Shown here piece by piece: positions 9,801 through 18,710 of a DNA stretch of 64,000 nt. Location: positions 29,671 to 93,670 of the forward strand of contig JAFGKG010000219.1 of the NCBI GenBank assembly GCA_016928715.1, in the 5' to 3' direction. Position 1 is the stretch's first letter. The number at the start of each line of letters is the position of its first letter. The notes below the pieces were generated by a model. The model was not told the DNA's origin. It did not search any database and was given only the letters and a program-made list of their open reading frames with translations. This DNA is from Chloroflexia bacterium (GTDB lineage Bacteria; Chloroflexota; Chloroflexia; DTKN01). The position numbers and the translations under genes were made by a program.

Positions 9801-10276
9801 GCCAACTCGCGGCCGTGATCGCCGACGCCGTGGACCAGGTAGAGGCCCTGGCCGCGATCAGGTCGGTTTCCCTCCAGGTTGTTGTTGCCCCGGACCTGCC
9901 CCTGGTCTGGGGCAACGGGCGGCGGTTGGGCCAGGTCATCACGAACCTGTTGGATAATGCCATCAAGTACAGCCCAAGCAGGAAAGAGGTCCTCTTTCGC
10001 GCCTATCCCCAGGGGGACATACTGCAGGTAGACGTCACCGACTATGGACCGGGCATTCCCAACGCGGACCTGCCCTATGTGTTTGAAAAGTTCTACACTA
10101 TCCGACAGAATAAACCAGGCGAAAAGGGAACTGGTTTGGGACTCTCCATCGCCCGCTCTATTATCCTGGCTCACGGGGGCAAAATTTGGGTTAAAAGCAA
10201 AGAAGGAGAAGGTTCCACCTTCTCCTTCAGTCTTTTATGTCGGGATATGCCGGCTCAGACGTCCGACAAGCTATGA
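6878..10276 (+). CDS. Cytoplasmic multi-GAF/PAS sensor histidine kinase with an unassigned N-terminal domain
   Basis: Three GAF-like segments (LCVPLV...LGILDL; GVSL...IGAVIL; ILVPLL...LGVLTV), PAS, H-box SHDLRSPL, N-box [11 protein letters not shown]-box GTGLGLSI; RBS GGAGG. Confidence 0.9.
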
Positions 10277-13200
10277 GTCCTCTTCGGCAGCCGGTTTGAG
10301 CGAATCCCAGGGCAGGCTTTCAAACTCTGGGCTATCGCTCTCCTCCAGGTCATCACCGCGCAAGAAGCGCATCGCCTGTTCACGCTCGAGACTGCGGGAG
10401 CCTTCCTCCTCCAGCGCGATGCGGGCCAGGCGCTGACGCTCTTCGGCCCGTTTACGGCGGATCTCCAGTCCTGTCCCAGCCGGGATCAGCCGCCCGATAA
10501 TGACATTTTCCTTCAGGCCGCGCAAATAGTCCATCTTGCCCATCACGGCCGCCTCTGTCAGCACACGGGTTGTCTCCTGGAAGGAGGCCGCGGCCAGCCA
10601 GGAATCGGTGTTCAAGGCCGCCTTGGTAATGCCGAGCAGGACCAGGTGCGCCGTCGCCGGTTCCCCACCGGCGGCGATCACGCGTGAATTCTCCTCTTGG
10701 TAGCTAGAACGATCCACCAGGTCCCCGGGCAAAAAGTCCGTATCCCCGGGGTCATCCACCTGGACCCGGCGCAGCATCTGCCGGATGATGATTTCCAGGT
10801 GCTTGTCATTGATGTCCACGCCCTGCGAGCAGTAGACGCTTTGGGCCTCATTGACCAGGTACGACTGGACCGCTTCGCGGCCGGCAATCTGCAATAGAGC
10901 TCGCGGATCGATCGAGCCCTCGGTCAGGCGATGGCCGGCCTCGATCCACTGTTCTTCGCGTACACGCAGGCGAACGGGAATCGGCACTTCGTACTCGCGC
11001 ACCTCTTCCTCGGCCCCCCGCAGCACAATCCGGCCGTCCTCCATAAAGACCTGACCGGCGACGCTGGCTACAATCGAAGGGCGGTCGTCGTCCTCTACAT
11101 TAGTCTCGGCCAACAGATCGCCCTCCTCGACCTCATCACCTTCCTCTACCCGGCAGACGAATTGTTCGGGGATCTCGTACACATCGCTGTAGGCCTCGCT
11201 GTGGACCACCCGGATAATGCGATGGTCGCCCTCGCGAATGATCTCGACGGTGCCATCGATATCGGCGATCTCGGCTTTCCCCTTGGGCAGGCGGGCCTCG
11301 AAAACCTCCTGCACCCGGGGCAGACCCTTGGTAATATCCAACTCGGATTTGACCCCACCGGTGTGAAAGGTGCGCAGCGTAAGCTGGGTACCCGGCTCAC
11401 CAATGGACTGGGCGGCGATGATACCAATGGCCTCGCCGATGCCCACCAGATTGCCGGTGGCCAAATTGCGGCCATAGCAGAGCGAGCAGAGACCGATCGG
11501 GGCCTGGCAGGAGAGCGGCGAGCGGACGAAAAAGTTGGTGAGGGCCTCCTCTTCCAAGAGACGCCGGGCCTCCGCGGGCACCTCTTCGTCTCCTCGCAGG
11601 ATCGCCTTGCGGCGCTCTGGCCGCAGCAAGGGCAGGGGGCGATCGAGGATCTTGGCCACCTGCTGCCAGACCTTTTGATTGATCTGGTCCACCCGCTCCC
11701 AGGCCTGTTCGTCAAATTCGTCGTTGCGGTCCACCAGGATTTCGCCACTGCTCGGATCGGCTACGGGCAAGGCCATCCGGCGCCCAATCAGGCGGGCGCT
11801 CAGTTCCTCGATAGTATGGTCGGCCTCGCGGACCCAGATGCCGCCTTCCGTCTCGCAGTCCTCACTGACAATGGTGACATCCTGGGCCACATCGACCAGG
11901 CGGCGGGTCAGATAACCGGCCTCGGCCGTACGCAGAGCGGTATCGGCCAGGCCTTTGCGTCCACCGTGGGTAGAGACAAAGTACTCCAGAACCGAAAGTC
12001 CCTCACGAAAGTTGGAACGAATGGGCAGGTCGATAATCCGGCCCGCCGGATCGGTCATCAGACCGCGCATGCCGGCCATCTGGCGAATCTGCTCGATATT
12101 GCCGCGGGCGCCGGAGGTGGCCATCATATAGACCGGGCCAAAGCGATCCAGTGTATTCGAGACCTCGGAGGTAATTTTTTGCGTGGCCTCGGTCCAGACC
12201 TCCACAGTGCCCCGATAGCGCTCGCCCTCGGTAATCAGACCGCGCCGGAACTGCCGCTCCAGGTTTTCCACCTCGCTATCGGCCTTGGAAAGGAGCTCCG
12301 TCTTGCCCTCGGGGATCTCGATATCCTCTATCCCGATGGTCAGGCCGGCCCGCGTGGCAAAGCGAAAGCCCAGTTGCTTAATCCGGTCGGCCATAGCGGC
12401 CGTCTCTTCGGCGCCATACTGACGGTAGCACTCGGCGATGATGCGACGCAAGGCCTTTTTATCCATAATCTCGTTGCGGAAGCGCAAACCTTCGGGCAGT
12501 ACCTCATTGAGAATGACCCGACCCAGGCAGGTTTCCAGAAGCTCATTGCCGATCTGGTAAGAGGGGGGAAGCAGGATGCGGATCTTGGTCTGGAGTCCGA
12601 TCAGGCCGGCATCGTAGGCCATCAGGGCCTCCTCCAGGCTGGAGAAAGCCTTGCCCTCCCCCCAAGCACCCGGCCGAACCAAGGTCATATAGTAGCAACC
12701 CAAGACCATCTCCTGGCTAGGGGTAATGATGGGGGAACCGGTGGCCGGAGAGAGCAGATTGTGCACTGAAAGCATACGATTGCGCGCTTCCTGCTGTGCC
12801 CGTTCTGAAAGCGGCACATGCACGGCCATCTGGTCGCCATCAAAGTCGGCGGCAAAAGCCGTACAGACGAGCGGGTGCAATTGGATGGCACTGCCCTCGA
12901 TCAGGACGGGCTCAAAAGCCTGAATGGAAAGGCGGTGCAGGGAGGGAGCCCGGTTCAGCAGCACCAAATAATTCTGCACGACCTCTTCCAGGACATCCCA
13001 GACCTCTGGACGGATCCGCTCGACACTGCGTTTGGCACTCTTGATGTTATGCGCATAGCCCCGTGCGACCAGGCCACGCATCACAAAAGGCTTGAACAGC
13101 TCGAGGGCCATCCGCTTGGGCAGACCACACTGGTGCAGCTTGAGATTGGGGCCGACCACAATGACCGAGCGGCCGGAATAGTCGACCCGCTTGCCCAAGA

Positions 13201-14728
13201 GATTTTGCCGAAAGCGGCCCTGCTTGCCCTTGAGCATATCCGAGAGGGACTTGAGGCGGTGTTTGCCCCGCCCAGAGACGGCCCTCCCGCGCCGACCATT
13301 GTCAATGAGTGCGTCTACAGCCTCCTGCAGCATACGCTTTTCGTTGCGGATAATGATCTCTGGCGCTTTGAGTTCCAACAAGCGGCGCAGGCGGTTGTTA
13401 CGGTTGATCACGCGGCGGTACAGGTCGTTGAGATCCGAGGTAGCGAAACGACCCCCATCCAACTGCACCATCGGTCTCAAATCCGGGGGCAGCACGGGCA
13501 GCACCGTCATGATCATCCACTCCGGACGGTTGCCAGACTTGCGGAAGGACTCGACCACCCGCAGCCGTTTGCCCGCCTTTTTGCGGCGCTGGGCCGACGT
13601 ACTGGTCTCCATTTCCTCCTTCAGTTCCACGGACAAGAGATTCAGGTCCAAGCGCCCCAAGATGTCCCGCACGGCCCCCGCGCCCATATCGGCCCGAAAG
13701 ATGTTGCCGCAGGCCTCTCGATACTCGCGGTACTGCGCCTCTGTGAGGAGCATAGAGCGATACAGTTCCTTGACCATACGCTGGCGGCGATCGGCTTCTT
13801 GGCGAATCTGGTCTATCTGCTCCTGGGCGGACTCTTCCAGGCGGGCGCTCTCTTGCTCGGCCACGTAGGAACGCTGGTCGCGCTCGGCCTCGGTTTGCAT
13901 CCGGGCATCCGATTGTTTTTGGCGTCCGATAGGTTCGACGGTCTCGATAGCCGCCTGGACAACATGGGTCAACTCGACCAAGTTGTCAGCAGTGACGGTC
14001 TCTCCCTCCTGAACAATGACCTCTCCAGTGGGCTCAAAAACGAGGGTGCGATGGGCCGGCCCGCCTTTCCAGGCCTCCAGTTCGGCTTCGATCTCTTTGG
14101 CCGCCTGCACAAAGGTCTCGGTCTGCTCCAGCAGCTCTTCCTCAAAGCGCTCCAGGGTAGCCTCCAGGGCGCGATCCAGCACGCCGAGTTCCCCTGCCAA
14201 CTGCTCGCGGAGGCGTTCTATTTGCTCGCCGGTCTCGGCTTCCACCTGGGCAATTTCCTCGGACACTTGTTTTTCGATGCGCTCCAGCAGGCTGGCCCGG
14301 CGGTCCTCATCCACATCGGTGACAATATAGGCAGCAAAATAGATGACCCGTTCCAGATTGCGCAGGGTGACGTTCAGCAGCAGACCCAGGCGGCTGGGAG
14401 TCCCCTTGACAAACCAGATGTGGGTAATCGGCGCCGCCAACTCGATGTGGCCCATGCGTTCGCGGCGCACGCGGGAACGCGTCACTTCGACCCCACACTT
14501 GTCGCAGATAATGCCATGGTGGCGCACGCGCTTGTACTTGCCACAGGCACATTCCCAGTCCTTGGTAGGACCAAAGATGCGTTCACAAAACAGCCCGTCC
14601 CGCTCGGCCCGCAGAGTACGGTAGTTGATCGTCTCCGGTTTGGTCACTTCTCCGTGAGACCAACGGCGGATTTCCTCCGGCGAAGCCACACCAATGCGAA
14701 TGGCCGTAATCTCGTTGATTCTTGTCAT
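10271..14728 (-). CDS. rpoC: DNA-directed RNA polymerase subunit beta'
   Basis: KPETINYRT, Zn finger CACGKY...[19 protein letters not shown], bridge helix/trigger loop [22 protein letters not shown]. Confidence 0.99.
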
Positions 14729-14789
14729 TCAGCTATCCTCTCAGTCCAGGCAGGTCAGCACAAGCCCCCGGCCGGATCTCCTAACAACG

Positions 14790-17700
14790 CTATTCTCTTT
14801 CGATACCAGAGAGGTTGATCCCCTCCAGCCCAATCAGGGGCCGAGTTTGTTGCCCCGCGTTGTCAATATCCACTGCCGCCTCATCGTCGCCATAGATCTC
14901 GACCGACAATCCCAAGCTTTGCAGTTCCTTGACCAACACCTTAAAGGCCTCAGGGATACCCACCTCCTGAATGGGCTCCCCTTTGACAATCGCCTCATAG
15001 GTCTTGCTGCGGCCATTGATATCATCGGACTTGACCGTGAGCATTTCTTGCAGCGTATAAGCCGCCCCATAAGCCTCCAGCGCCCAGACCTCCATCTCGC
15101 CAAAGCGCTGCCCACCGAACTGGGCTTTGCCGCCCAGGGGCTGCTGGGTGACCAGGGAATAGGGGCCGGTAGAGCGGGCGTGGATTTTGTCCTCCACCAG
15201 GTGGGCCAGCTTCATCATATAGATATAGCCCACCGCGACAGGATTTTCAAAGGGCTCTCCGGTGCGGCCATCGTAGAGCGTGATCTTGCCATTATCGGGG
15301 AGGCCGGCTTTTACCAGCATATCTTCGATATCCCTTTCCTCGGCGCCGTCAAAGACGGGGGTGGCGACCTTGATCCCCAATCTGAGTGCGGCCCAGCCGA
15401 GATGGGTCTCGAGTAGCTGCCCAATGTTCATGCGCGAGGGCACGCCCAGCGGGTTGAGGACAATATCCACCGGCGTACCATCGGGCAGAAAGGGCATATC
15501 TTCAACGGGCAGGATACGCGAGATGACGCCCTTGTTGCCGTGCCGCCCGGCCATCTTGTCCCCGGCGGCGATTTTACGCCGCTGGGCAATGAGGACCCGC
15601 ACCATCGTGTGCACGCCAACCGAGAGTTCGTCGCCCTGGTCGCGGGAAAATATCTTGACATCAATCACCCGGCCGGAGACCCCATGGGGAACCCGCAGGG
15701 AAGAATCCCGCACCTCGCGGGCCTTTTCTCCAAAGATCGCCCGCAGCAGGCGCTCCTCGGCGGTCAGGTCCGTCTCTCCCTTGGGCGTGATCTTGCCCAC
15801 CAGGATCTCACCCGGCCCGACCTCGGCCCCGATATAAACCACGCCGGCTTCGTCCAGATTGGCGAGCAGGTCCTGACCTACATTGGGGATATCCCGGGTA
15901 ATCTCCTCCGGGCCCAACTTGGTATCGCGGGCCTCACATTCGTACTTTTCGATGTGCACGGAGGTATAGACGTCCTCCCGTTCCAGCCGCTCGCTGATGA
16001 GGATGGCGTCCTCAAAGTTACCTCCCTCCCAGGGCAAAAAGGCCACCAGGACGTTGCGCCCCAAGGCCAGTTCTCCATTGTCGGTAGAAGGCCCATCGGC
16101 GATGACCTGCCCGGCGACCACCCCATCCCCCTTTTGCACAATCGGCCGCTGGTGAATGCAGGTATCCTGATTGGAACGACGGAATCCAATCAGCGGATAG
16201 GTGCGCTCAAAACCATCCTCTTCCCGCACCAGGATTTCGTCGGCCACCGCCCGCAGCACCTCGCCGTCAGCGGCGGCAATAGCCACCAGGCCGGAATCAC
16301 GGGCCGCCTGGTACTCCATGCCCGTACCGACCAGGGGCGATTCCGGCACCAGCAGGGGCACGGCCTGTCGCTGCATGTTGGAACCCATCAGGGCACGGTT
16401 GGCATCGTCATGTTCCAGGAAGGGGATCAGGGCCGTGGATACCGAAACAACCTGTTTGGGCGACACATCCATAAAGTCGATTTGGTCGGCGCGCTCCAGG
16501 GTGGGCCGGGAACCTCGCCGGGCCGTGACCCGCTCGTCGATGAAGCGATTGCGCTCGTCCAGGCGGGCATTGGCTTGGGCAATGGTATACCGATCGTCCT
16601 CGTCGGCGGAGAGATAGGTGATCTCTTGGCTTACCGTCGGATGCACCGCAATGCGTTTCAAGGGCAGCGCCGCGATCCGCTTGCTCAGGGCCTCGTCAAT
16701 TTCTGTGCCGGCTGCCGCGACCAACTCGCCGCTCTGCGGATCGGTTACGTCCTGGCGCAACAGATGCCCTTCCAGGAGTACCGCCCGGTTCTCCAACTCG
16801 CGGACGACCCGGCGATAGGGGGTCTCGATAAAACCAAGCGGGTTAACCCGCCCATAGGTCGCCAGGCTGCCAATCAAGCCGATGTTGGGGCCCTCGGGGG
16901 TTTCTACCGGACAAATACGCCCATAGTGTGAATGGTGCACATCTCGGACCTCAAAGCCGGCCCGATCACGGGAAAGGCCACCCGGCCCCAGCGCCGAAAG
17001 GCGCCGCTTGTGGGTCAACTCGGCCAAGGGGTTGGTCTGGTCCATGAACTGGGAAAGCTGGCTGCCACCAAAGAATTCTCGAATCGCCGCCACCAGCGGT
17101 CGAATGTTGATCAGACGATTGGGCATCACTGTTTCGGGCTCGCTCATGGTCATCCGCTCACGGATGATGCGCTCTATGCGCAGCAAGCCAATACGGAATT
17201 GGTTCTGCACGAGCTCGCCCACCGTGCGGACCCGGCGATTGCCCAGATGGTCAATATCATCCGGTTCGCCCCAACCATTGTTCAGACGGATCAGCTCTTC
17301 AACGATGCGAATAATGTCCGCCGTAACCAGGGTGCGCTGGTTCAAGGGCGGCGGATCCTGATGCCCACTGATCACGCGCACGTAAAAGCGGCTGCAAAGA
17401 TGCTCAAACTCGTATTCCGCAGGACCAATCCAAAGGTCCTGGCCCTCTTGACACATCTCGCAGCCCGGGCAGATGTACCAGCCGCACTCGGGGCACATCT
17501 CGACTTTGCTCGAGTCAATCAAATGGGCCTCATCCCGCCAGCAGGTCACGGATTCCCCACTCAGGGCCAGTTCTACCACCTCTTGGGTCTGGGCCCGCAG
17601 TGCTTTTATCTCGTTCTCTTCCAGGCTGAGCCCCCCCCTGGCCCGCTCCAACCACCAGACGCGCTGCTGCACCATGTCATCAACAAGTTCTTGATCCGCC

Positions 17701-18710
17701 CCATGCTCGCGGGCCTGCTGCCAAAGATCCAGCCAGGCGCGCCGGCGCTCCAAACCCTCTCGGACCTCCGGCTCCAGCGTGCGATTCTCCCACAAGCGGC
17801 GGTTCAATTTGTAGCGTCCGACCTTGGCCAGGTTGTAACGCCGCTCATCAAAGAGCATGCTCTCCAGTAAATTGCGCGCATTGTCCAAAGTAGGGGGATC
17901 GCCGGGACGAAGCCGCCGATAGATTTCCAGCAATGCCTCCGGCTGGTCCGTACTGGGATCCCGGCCCAGCGTGGCCTCGATAAAGGAACGATCCGTCGAG
18001 GTATCCACATGTTGGAAAAGAGCCCGAAGCTCGTCATCCGTATCGTAGCCCAACGCTCGCAATAGAATGGTCACCGGGATTTTGCGCCGCCGATCCATCT
18101 TGACCGAGAGAACATTGCGGCGATTGGTCTCGAAATCCAGCCAGGCTCCCCGCGCCGGAATCAACTTGGCTGCGTACAGGGGCAAACCATCGCGGGTCTC
18201 GTCCTTGAACTGAAAATAGCAACCCGGGGAACGGACCAACTGGGAGACCACCACCCGCTCAGCCCCGTTGATGATAAAGGTAGCCCGGTTGGTCATCCAG
18301 GGAAAATCACCACAAAAAATCTCTTGCTCCCGGACCTCACCCGACTCTTTGATGTGGAGTTGGACTTGAACGCGCAGAGGACGAGCGTAGGTGGCATCCC
18401 GTTCCCGGGCCTCGCTCTCACTGTAACGGGGCTCCCCAAAGTAATAGTGCAAAAAGTACAGCTCCATCTTGCGCCCGGTGAAATCCTGTACCGGCGAGAT
18501 CTCGGTAAAAATCTGCTGCAGGCCCTCCTCGACAAACCAATGGAAGGACTCCAACTGGGTCTGGATCAGGTGGGGCATGGGTAAAATTTCAGGGATCCGC
18601 GAGAAGGAATGCCGCTCGGGTCGCTTGACCTCTCGAATGGGGTGCTGTGGACCCGGTAAAGAATCCTCTACCGTCACAGACTGTTCAGGAGTACGAACAA
18701 CAACGGACAT
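14790..18710 (-). CDS. rpoB: DNA-directed RNA polymerase subunit beta
   Basis: [63 protein letters not shown]. Confidence 0.99.

What the first reader, a model, noticed from the sequence alone, without database searches (positions are those of the whole stretch)
12833..12856. RpoC catalytic motif is AADFDGD rather than NADFDGD
Seen: minus strand reads TTT GCC GCC GAC TTT GAT GGC GAC = F-A-A-D-F-D-G-D; codon 626 (12851-12853) is GCC. Established: NADFDGD is near-invariant in cellular multisubunit RNAPs, and the Asn (E. coli beta' N458) contacts the NTP ribose and contributes to rNTP/dNTP discrimination. AAY to GCC needs at least two substitutions, so a single base-call error is unlikely. The three Mg-binding Asp and the NRAP Arg are intact. 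Inference: a natural RNAP variant with altered sugar selectivity or compensating changes.
Basis: partly seen in the sequence, partly recalled or inferred. Interest (0 to 1): 0.8.

Follow-up and report, generated by a model that had tools for sequence, protein, structure and literature searches.

The report
RNA polymerase lacking its conserved active-site asparagine
The only RNA polymerase of this uncultured Chloroflexota bacterium has alanine where almost all cellular RNA polymerases have an asparagine that holds the sugar of the incoming nucleotide, and its whole family has glycine there, so this is a real natural variant and not an error or a dying gene.

Summary
rpoC (window 10271-14728, minus strand, 1485 aa) reads F-A-A-D-F-D-G-D, and codon 626 (12851-12853) is GCC, which aligns with E. 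coli beta' N458.

- **Not an artefact of gene decay.** It is the only rpoC found in the genome. It sits next to rpoB and has dN/dS of 0.09-0.15 against relatives.
- **Loss of Asn is family-wide.** All 8 other genomes of the family read GADFDGD, using GGC, GGG and GGA. All 21 loci from nine other families of the class read NADFDGD.
- **Ala is one base from the family's Gly.** Ala is a singleton and I could not confirm it from reads.
- **Gly recurs elsewhere.** It occurs in 22 of 401 sampled Chloroflexota, and sporadically in Armatimonadota, Patescibacteria and Clostridia. It is also common in phage RNA polymerases.
- **Not found in print.** No paper in the searchable library contains either motif string.

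From published N458S/D data I expect weaker ribose contacts, forward-biased translocation and only a modest loss of sugar selectivity. R425 and the trigger-loop Gln are intact. None of this was tested.

The parts
10271..14728 (-). rpoC, the RNA polymerase beta' subunit, 1485 aa (P0001). It is the only copy found in the genome.
   Evidence: open frame. (Pfam Rpb1 domains 1-5, E from 1e-84 to 5e-14, all above the curated cut-offs). (1 match in G000, which is 88.86% complete).
12833..12853 (-). Metal-A motif AADFDGD (codons 626-632). The canonical form is NADFDGD.
   Evidence: One search aligns it to E. coli beta' 458-464.
12851..12853 (-). Codon 626, GCC = Ala, at the position of E. coli beta' N458. 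The 8 relatives in the family have Gly (GGC x5, GGG x2, GGA x1).
12950..12952 (-). Codon 593, the Arg of NRAP, equivalent to E. coli beta' R425. This is the main 2'-OH sensor and it is intact.
   Evidence: Its role is taken from passages of PMC7862312.
12710..12712 (-). Codon 673, Glu at the position of E. coli D505, next to Q504. Glu is specific to the family; Asp is invariant in the 21 Asn-type loci of the class.
11339..11404 (-). First helix and tip of the trigger loop (residues 1109-1130). Q1115 (=Q929), R1119 (=R933) and H1122 (=H936) are intact. L1118 replaces M932, which is also the case in Asn-type sister families. K1127 is family-specific; the other families have Ala there.
   Evidence: E. 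coli trigger-loop numbering is recalled, not taken from a call.
14790..18710 (-). rpoB, the beta subunit, 1306 aa (P0002), directly upstream of rpoC on the same strand.
17361..17660 (-). Family-specific insert in beta (residues 351-450) containing a Cys-rich CPxC...CPxC stretch.
   Evidence: sequence; found in 8 of 8 other family genomes, and not found with this query in 32 genomes of nine other families.

Best explanation
This is the sole, functional housekeeping RNA polymerase of an uncultured Chloroflexota bacterium, probably of class Chloroflexia judging by the labels of the nearest hits. It lacks the Asn of NADFDGD (E. coli beta' N458).

Shown: the ancestor of its family replaced Asn with Gly, and this genome then went from Gly to Ala by one base change (GGC to GCC). 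The rest of the catalytic centre is kept, including the Asp triad, R425, and trigger-loop Gln, Arg and His.

Inferred from published N458S/D work: removing the amide side chain takes away one hydrogen-bond partner of the 2'/3'-OH. This partner normally contacts the incoming NTP, and also the RNA 3' nucleotide when it sits in the substrate site. The enzyme should therefore bind NTP ribose somewhat more weakly. It should populate the pre-translocated and 1-nt backtracked states less, giving a forward-biased, less pause-prone enzyme. It should lose only a few-fold of its discrimination against 2'-dNTPs, because R425 and the trigger-loop Gln carry most of that selection. A small residue (Gly or Ala) probably leaves room for a water molecule to bridge the ribose hydroxyls; this last point is pure inference.
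For: Real and fixed:
- 8 of 8 other family genomes have GADFDGD, with three different Gly codons. 21 of 21 loci from nine other families of the class have NADFDGD.
- On a tree of 111 full-length proteins with the site masked, the family forms one clade of 9 rows with support 100.

Functional:
- One rpoC match in the own genome, and one in each of the 8 relatives.
- dN/dS is 0.09-0.15 at dS 0.95-1.35.
- All five Rpb1 Pfam domains are present, rpoB is adjacent, and GreA is present.

Intact partners: R593 (=R425) and D628/630/632; Q1115, R1119 and H1122.

Mechanism, from passages I read:
- N458S lowers selectivity at the binding step about 4-fold, while R425K lowers it 17-fold at binding and 25-fold at incorporation (PMC7862312).
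- An N458D complex hardly enters the pre-translocated state (PMC3424550).

Small residues are the recurrent replacement:
- Of 69 rpoC-context hits with a non-A-first codon, 64 are Gly, 2 are Ala and 3 are His.
- 0 of 401 Chloroflexota have Thr, Ser (AGY), Arg (AGR), Ile or Met at the site.
Against: - No biochemistry exists for Gly or Ala at this site. The published mutants are Ser and Asp in E. coli, and their effects need not transfer to this enzyme.
- The family has 15 other family-specific changes at positions that are otherwise invariant in the class. They include D505E next to Q504, a Lys in the trigger-loop tip and a Cys-rich insert in beta. Any of these could compensate fully, or change the outcome.
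- I found no replacement that recurs across independent Gly lineages, so the 'water fills the gap' step has no support beyond residue size.
- The Ala call rests on one assembly. Its protein cluster has 1 member on 1 contig, and laying Logan contigs did not settle codon 626.
Confidence: 0.6

Rival explanations
1. The true state of this genome is Gly, as in its family, and Ala (GCC) is a single-base assembly or base-call error.
For: GCC differs from the commonest family codon, GGC, by one base. P0001 is alone in its 90% cluster, with 1 member on 1 contig, and its nearest protein is 89% identical over residues 520-740. It is the only Ala among the 120 best hits and among the 23 positives in the phylum sample. 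Only contigs could be laid, not reads.
Against: The probable source run holds the flanking sequence at a mean word depth of about 11, a depth at which consensus errors are rare. Ala at this site exists in nature elsewhere: 2 rpoC-context genome hits (L046, L063) and 8 rpoC-like metagenome contigs. Either way, Asn is absent.
Confidence: 0.1
2. The replacement is functionally silent. Co-evolved residues, or an ordered water molecule, restore normal NTP binding, translocation and selectivity, so the enzyme behaves like any bacterial RNA polymerase.
For: The variant has persisted through divergence that is near synonymous saturation (dS 0.95-1.35), and it arose at least twice among the 111 nearest proteins. 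The family's stem branch is the longest inner branch of that tree (0.49), and the family carries specific changes near the site, namely D505E and a trigger-loop Lys. N458S is a mild mutant in vitro.
Against: N458S and N458D measurably shift translocation and backtracking. No change shared by independent Gly lineages was found: the Q504 position varies in both Asn-type and Gly-type lineages, and trigger loops differ from lineage to lineage.
Confidence: 0.25
3. The loss of Asn is an adaptation against natural inhibitors or nucleoside analogues that use the same ribose or pyrophosphate pocket. It trades some catalytic efficiency for resistance.
For: In the passage I read, the N458D complex responded poorly to tagetitoxin. 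The variant recurs independently in soil- and sediment-type lineages. That tagetitoxin and pseudouridimycin contact this residue directly is my recollection and was not seen in any call.
Against: No inhibitor, producer or resistance context was found or looked for in the window. The distribution is sporadic (0 of 150 further Patescibacteria). Phage polymerases also carry Gly, which suggests general tolerance of the change rather than selection by inhibitors.
Confidence: 0.05
4. This rpoC is a decaying or accessory copy, and a canonical copy does the housekeeping work.
For: The genome is only 88.86% complete and lies in 226 contigs, so a second copy could be unassembled.
Against: There is one match in the own genome. 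There is exactly one match in each of the 8 relatives, which are 93-96% complete, and every one of those has Gly. The frame is intact at 1485 aa, dN/dS is 0.09-0.15, and the gene has the standard rpoB-rpoC arrangement.
Confidence: 0.01

Closest known systems
Canonical bacterial RNA polymerase beta' (E. coli RpoC, Thermus and Bacillus beta' in solved structures)
   Same: Same domain set (Pfam Rpb1 domains 1-5). The 160 residues around the site give E-values of 1e-69 to 1e-59 against solved beta' chains. Same Asp triad, NRAP Arg, and trigger-loop Gln, Arg and His. Same rpoB-rpoC gene order.
   Different: Ala here, and Gly in the family, replaces N458. That residue is called 'universally conserved' in PMC7862312, and the motif is called invariant from E. 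coli to Pol I-III in PMC2605557. The family also has D505E, a trigger-loop Lys and a Cys-rich insert in beta.
E. coli beta' N458S / N458D and yeast Rpb1 N479S laboratory mutants
   Same: They lose the same side chain. They are the only experimental guide to what the natural variant may do.
   Different: They are engineered Ser or Asp replacements in an enzyme that evolved with Asn. Here Gly or Ala has been fixed for a long time in a wild lineage, alongside other lineage-specific changes. I saw no Gly or Ala mutant data in the passages I read.
Plant RNA polymerases IV and V (NRPD1, NRPE1)
   Same: They are natural multisubunit polymerases that have lost the Asn. NRPE1 keeps only ADFDGD and NRPD1 keeps only DFDGD (PMC2605557). 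Both incorporate dNTPs more readily than Pol II (PMC5737373).
   Different: They are specialised, non-essential paralogues that differ from Pol I-III at about 140 ultra-conserved positions (abstract seen). Here the change lies in the only polymerase of a bacterium, and the rest of the active centre is conserved.
Phage multisubunit RNA polymerases and phage single-chain two-barrel polymerases with GADFDGD
   Same: They have Gly at the same motif position. The viral-contig scan gave at least 102 stretches. Of the 80 loci returned, 70 read SGADFDGD and 4 have a beta'-like context. One locus of the first kind matched phrog_4291. Two loci of the second kind matched phrog_25354 (no known function) best, and also phage 'RNA polymerase beta subunit' PHROGs. 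Earlier notes e1-1993054 and e1-6070544 report the same for jumbo phages.
   Different: These are very divergent viral enzymes with different sequence around the motif. The window's protein is a standard cellular beta', 70-89% identical to other Chloroflexota beta' over residues 520-740.

Membership tests
Bacterial DNA-directed RNA polymerase beta' subunit (RpoC) | Rpb1 domain architecture (Pfam RNA_pol_Rpb1_1 to _5) | tested here: met
   all five domains are above the curated cut-offs (284.7, 126.5, 96.9, 52.7 and 214.8 bits).
Bacterial DNA-directed RNA polymerase beta' subunit (RpoC) | Metal-A Asp triad DFDGD | tested here: met
   D628, D630 and D632. They align to E. coli 460, 462 and 464.
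Bacterial DNA-directed RNA polymerase beta' subunit (RpoC) | Asn of NADFDGD (E. coli N458). This is a near-invariant signature, not a criterion for membership. | tested here: not met
   Ala626. The 8 family relatives have Gly.
Bacterial DNA-directed RNA polymerase beta' subunit (RpoC) | NRAP Arg (R425) and trigger-loop Gln, Arg and His | tested here: met
   R593, Q1115, R1119, H1122. The M932 position is Leu, as in Asn-type sister families.
Bacterial DNA-directed RNA polymerase beta' subunit (RpoC) | Single housekeeping copy directly downstream of rpoB | tested here: met
   (rpoB at 14790-18710 on the same strand). (1 match in an 88.86%-complete genome). (1 match in each of the 8 relatives).
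Bacterial DNA-directed RNA polymerase beta' subunit (RpoC) | RNA synthesis activity and sugar selectivity | not testable with these tools
   This needs purified enzyme.
Phage two-barrel / multisubunit RNA polymerases carrying GADFDGD | Viral sequence context around the motif (SGADFDGD..VIP, or jumbo-phage beta' pieces) and location on a phage genome | tested here: not met
   Searches show the viral contexts. The window's context is [24 protein letters not shown], its nearest relatives are Chloroflexota beta', and it lies next to a full-length rpoB.

The most novel reading that the evidence does not exclude
Asn-less cellular RNA polymerases form a natural class that recognises ribose in a genuinely different way. 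In this family, losing the N458 amide together with D505E, a trigger-loop Lys and a Cys-rich beta insert re-wires how the 2'/3'-OH of the NTP and of the RNA 3' end are sensed. The result would be an enzyme with clearly altered substrate range (2'- or 3'-modified nucleotides), altered pausing and proofreading, or altered sensitivity to inhibitors. The repeated, independent choice of Gly in Chloroflexota, Armatimonadota, Patescibacteria, Clostridia and phages would then be convergent adaptation, not tolerated drift.
Probability: 0.15. Interest if true: 0.75.

Novelty: new variant of a known kind. Interest (0 to 1): 0.5.

Why it matters
Mechanistic papers treat N458 as one of three universally conserved residues that contact the NTP ribose (PMC7862312). 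Here whole lineages of free-living bacteria run their only RNA polymerase without it. About 1 in 18 sampled Chloroflexota species do so (22 of 401). That provides natural, long-adapted enzymes for testing three things: what this residue contributes to sugar selection, what it contributes to translocation and backtracking, and how its loss is tolerated. It also shows that "invariant" here reflects the set of cultured organisms that have been studied.

Tried and rejected
- **Read support.** Only Logan contigs were available. The conserved motif attracts contigs of many other organisms, with depth in the thousands at 12803-12864. In the probable source run X1, the exact-match piece ends at 12835. 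A 151-base piece from a different study (X2, 12826-12976, 2 differing letters) spans the codon, and no differing-letter row for 12851-12853 was among those shown, but 32 rows were not shown. I draw no conclusion about Ala from this.
- **Covariation with the Q504 position.** Many Gly lineages have Leu, Arg or Lys there, but so do Asn-type Chloroflexia (His, Arg). Rejected as a specific partner.
- **A shared trigger-loop change.** The family has a Lys in the tip. The Limnocylindria genome is canonical, and the two Patescibacteria-group genomes and the Clostridia genome each differ in their own way. No common pattern emerged.
- **D505 or Q504 in PMC7862312.** The paper does not mention them.
- **Paper search.** My terms were too general, so the listing was irrelevant and nothing from it was used.
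- **Earlier findings near this place, and by five words.** Nothing was returned.
- **Independent Ala relatives of this genus.** None found. The 8 rpoC-like Ala contigs are only 56-66% identical to P0001.
- **Not done.** I ran no structure prediction or complex prediction, because neither would place the NTP.

Full report
**Observation.** The minus strand at 12856-12833 reads TTT GCC GCC GAC TTT GAT GGC GAC. The frame 10271-14728 (minus) is open for 1485 codons and reads ...[23 protein letters not shown].... Counting from the ATG at 14728, the first Ala is codon 626 (12851-12853). Over P0001 residues 541-696 the protein aligns without gaps to E. coli beta' 373-528. A626 is therefore N458, R593 is R425, and D628/630/632 are the metal-A triad.

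**What the gene is.** The protein has all five Rpb1 Pfam domains above their cut-offs. It lies directly downstream of a 1306-aa rpoB on the same strand. A search of the window's own assembly found one match only. That assembly has 226 contigs, 88.86% completeness and 5.01% contamination. Each of the 8 other genomes of the family (93-96% complete) also has exactly one match. Against those 8 relatives, rpoC has dN/dS of 0.09-0.15 at dS 0.95-1.35. This indicates strong purifying selection over a divergence close to synonymous saturation. GreA is present in the genome. A decaying or accessory copy is effectively excluded.

**The loss of Asn is a family trait.**
- In the loci, all 8 other family genomes (three genera) read GADFDGD. 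All 21 loci from nine other families of the same class read NADFDGD. Two of those 21, L011 and L012, come from the unpublished genomes G019 and G039.
- The Gly codons are GGC (5 genomes), GGG (2) and GGA (1). The window has GCC.
- In the protein database, the 120 best hits to residues 520-740 split into 106 Asn, 13 Gly and 1 Ala, the Ala being the window itself.
- I built a FastTree of the 111 hits of at least 1300 aa, leaving out the 9 shorter rows and masking the site. On it the family is one clade of 9 rows with support 100. Its stem is the longest inner branch (0.49). A second Gly clade of 5 rows lies elsewhere. The non-Asn state needs at least 2 changes.
- Labels of the nearest named hits (Chloroflexia, Roseiflexaceae, Chloroflexaceae) place the family in class Chloroflexia.

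**Ala versus Gly.**
- Ala is a singleton: its protein cluster has one member on one contig, and the nearest protein is 89% identical.
- A metagenome scan for [F/Y]AADFDGDQM gave 12 stretches. Eight are rpoC-like but only 56-66% identical to the window, so none is close kin.
- Laying public runs gave only contigs and did not settle the codon.
- I put about 0.1 on Ala being an error for Gly. Asn is absent either way.

**How widespread the variant is.**

| Search | Result |
|---|---|
| The 69 rpoC-context loci, by residue | Gly 64, His 3, Ala 2 |
| Even sample of the phylum, [G/A]ADFDGDQM | 23 of 401 (22 Gly in 11 other families, plus the window) |
| Phylum sample at ≥95% completeness, Thr/Ser(AGY)/Arg(AGR)/Ile/Met | 0 of 401 |
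| Class sample, any V-first codon + ADFDGDQM | 356 of 401; all 150 listed matches are AAY, 214 not listed |
| Patescibacteria sample around one Gly genome | 1 of 151 (the centre only) |

- The other 11 loci of the genome-wide scan are frameshifted contexts or unrelated proteins.
- By record title, the Gly genomes are Limnocylindria, other Chloroflexota, Armatimonadota, several Patescibacteria groups, and a few Clostridia-type gut MAGs.
- One of the 22 Gly genomes in the phylum sample, G604, is unpublished. The class tally includes ten unpublished genomes.
- Of the 80 viral loci, 70 read SGADFDGD, and the one I tested matches phrog_4291. Four have a beta'-like context; the two I tested matched phrog_25354 (no known function) best and also matched phage RNA polymerase beta PHROGs.

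**Literature.**
- No paper in the searchable library contains the string GADFDGD or AADFDGD.
- PMC7862312 (passages) calls R425, N458 and Q929 universally conserved ribose contacts. It reports about a 4-fold loss of binding selectivity for N458S and identifies R425 as the main discriminator.
[quoted passage not shown] N458D complexes hardly move backward when tagetitoxin is added.
- PMC6237748 (passages) reports lower occupancy of the backtracked state for N458D and for M932L.
- PMC2605557 (passages) states that NADFDGD is invariant from E. coli to Pol I-III. Plant NRPE1 keeps ADFDGD and NRPD1 keeps DFDGD.
- PMC5737373 (passages) links the substitution in Pol IV and V to greater dNTP use.
- Supplements of these papers were not opened.

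**Mechanism.**
- Shown: the side chain is gone, and the other ribose and phosphate contacts are kept.
- Inferred: weaker ribose binding in the substrate site, fewer pre-translocated and 1-nt backtracked states, and a modest loss of 2'-dNTP discrimination.
- Guess only: a water molecule replaces the amide. This rests on the fact that the replacements are almost always Gly or Ala.

**Search for compensation.**
- The family differs from all (at least 20 of 21) Asn-type class members at 16 positions, counting the site itself. These include E673 (the D505 position, next to Q504) and K1127 in the trigger-loop tip. The family also has a Cys-rich insert in beta, found in 8 of 8 relatives and not found in 32 other genomes.
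- None of these recurs consistently in the other Gly lineages I could read. Compensation is therefore possible but not shown.

**Verdict.** This is a real, lineage-fixed variant of a residue that mechanistic work treats as universal, in an otherwise ordinary and essential enzyme. It is a new variant of a known kind. It is of moderate interest because the laboratory mutants are mild and because phage and plant polymerases already show that the residue is dispensable for catalysis.

**Limits.**
- There is no read-level proof of Ala.
- The genome-wide scan was truncated and could not see A-first codons outside Chloroflexota.
- E. coli trigger-loop numbering, and the statements that tagetitoxin or pseudouridimycin contact N458, are recalled and not taken from a call.

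Noticed in passing
window 17361-17660 (minus), rpoB residues 351-450: The beta subunit carries an insert with a Cys-rich CPxC...CPxC stretch that looks like a zinc ribbon. It is present in 8 of 8 other family genomes (66-71% identity). It was not found with this query in 32 genomes of nine other families of the class.
   Followed up: partly
window about 13500-14350 (minus), rpoC residues about 130-400: The protein has a long, charged, coiled-coil-like N-terminal insert relative to E. coli: its numbering runs 168 ahead of E. coli at the active site. Lineage-specific beta' inserts of this kind are known in other phyla (recalled).
   Followed up: no
L166 (genome G758, labelled Clostridia MAG): Another Ala-type rpoC ([12 protein letters not shown]) also has a divergent trigger loop, QLSMKVFQAGG. 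Here Lys replaces the Arg and Gln replaces the catalytic His. The same contig shows 3 TAA stops within a downstream match.
   Followed up: partly
L167 and L168 (genomes G759 Saccharibacteria, G756 Patescibacteria): These Gly-type rpoC genes have unusual trigger loops, QLSLDSKHRAG and QLTLRTKHAAG.
   Followed up: no
L042, L071, L078: Three gut-type MAGs, labelled Clostridia, Christensenella and Lachnospiraceae, read [10 protein letters not shown][VI]H. They have His in place of Asn and Pro in place of the Ala of QMAVH.
   Followed up: no
L066, L069 (Rhizonema MAG contigs); L087, L088, L090, L103: ADFDGDQM occurs in frames that are not rpoC-like. The two Rhizonema contigs share ...[15 protein letters not shown]... 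The proteins were not identified.
   Followed up: no
L058, L068, L072, L098, L107: In these loci the rpoC sequence is canonical downstream ([14 protein letters not shown]) but the upstream frame is broken. This suggests frameshifts in those assemblies just before the motif.
   Followed up: no
L152, L154, L158 (metagenome contigs): These are very divergent polymerase-like frames with AADFDGDQM followed by S/T/N-L/I-F/Y. They are 29-38% identical to the window's beta' over 69-104 residues. Their origin is unknown.
   Followed up: no
L169-L248 (viral contigs): 70 of the 80 GADFDGD loci share the context (L/M)SGADFDGD..V.P. The one I tested (L181) matches phrog_4291, which is annotated as RNA-dependent RNA polymerase.
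   Followed up: partly
window 10931-12769 (+), 12818-14818 (+), 15540-16931 (+) and others: Long open frames of 463-666 aa run antisense to rpoC and rpoB. I take them to be shadow frames of G+C-rich coding DNA. They were not examined.
   Followed up: no
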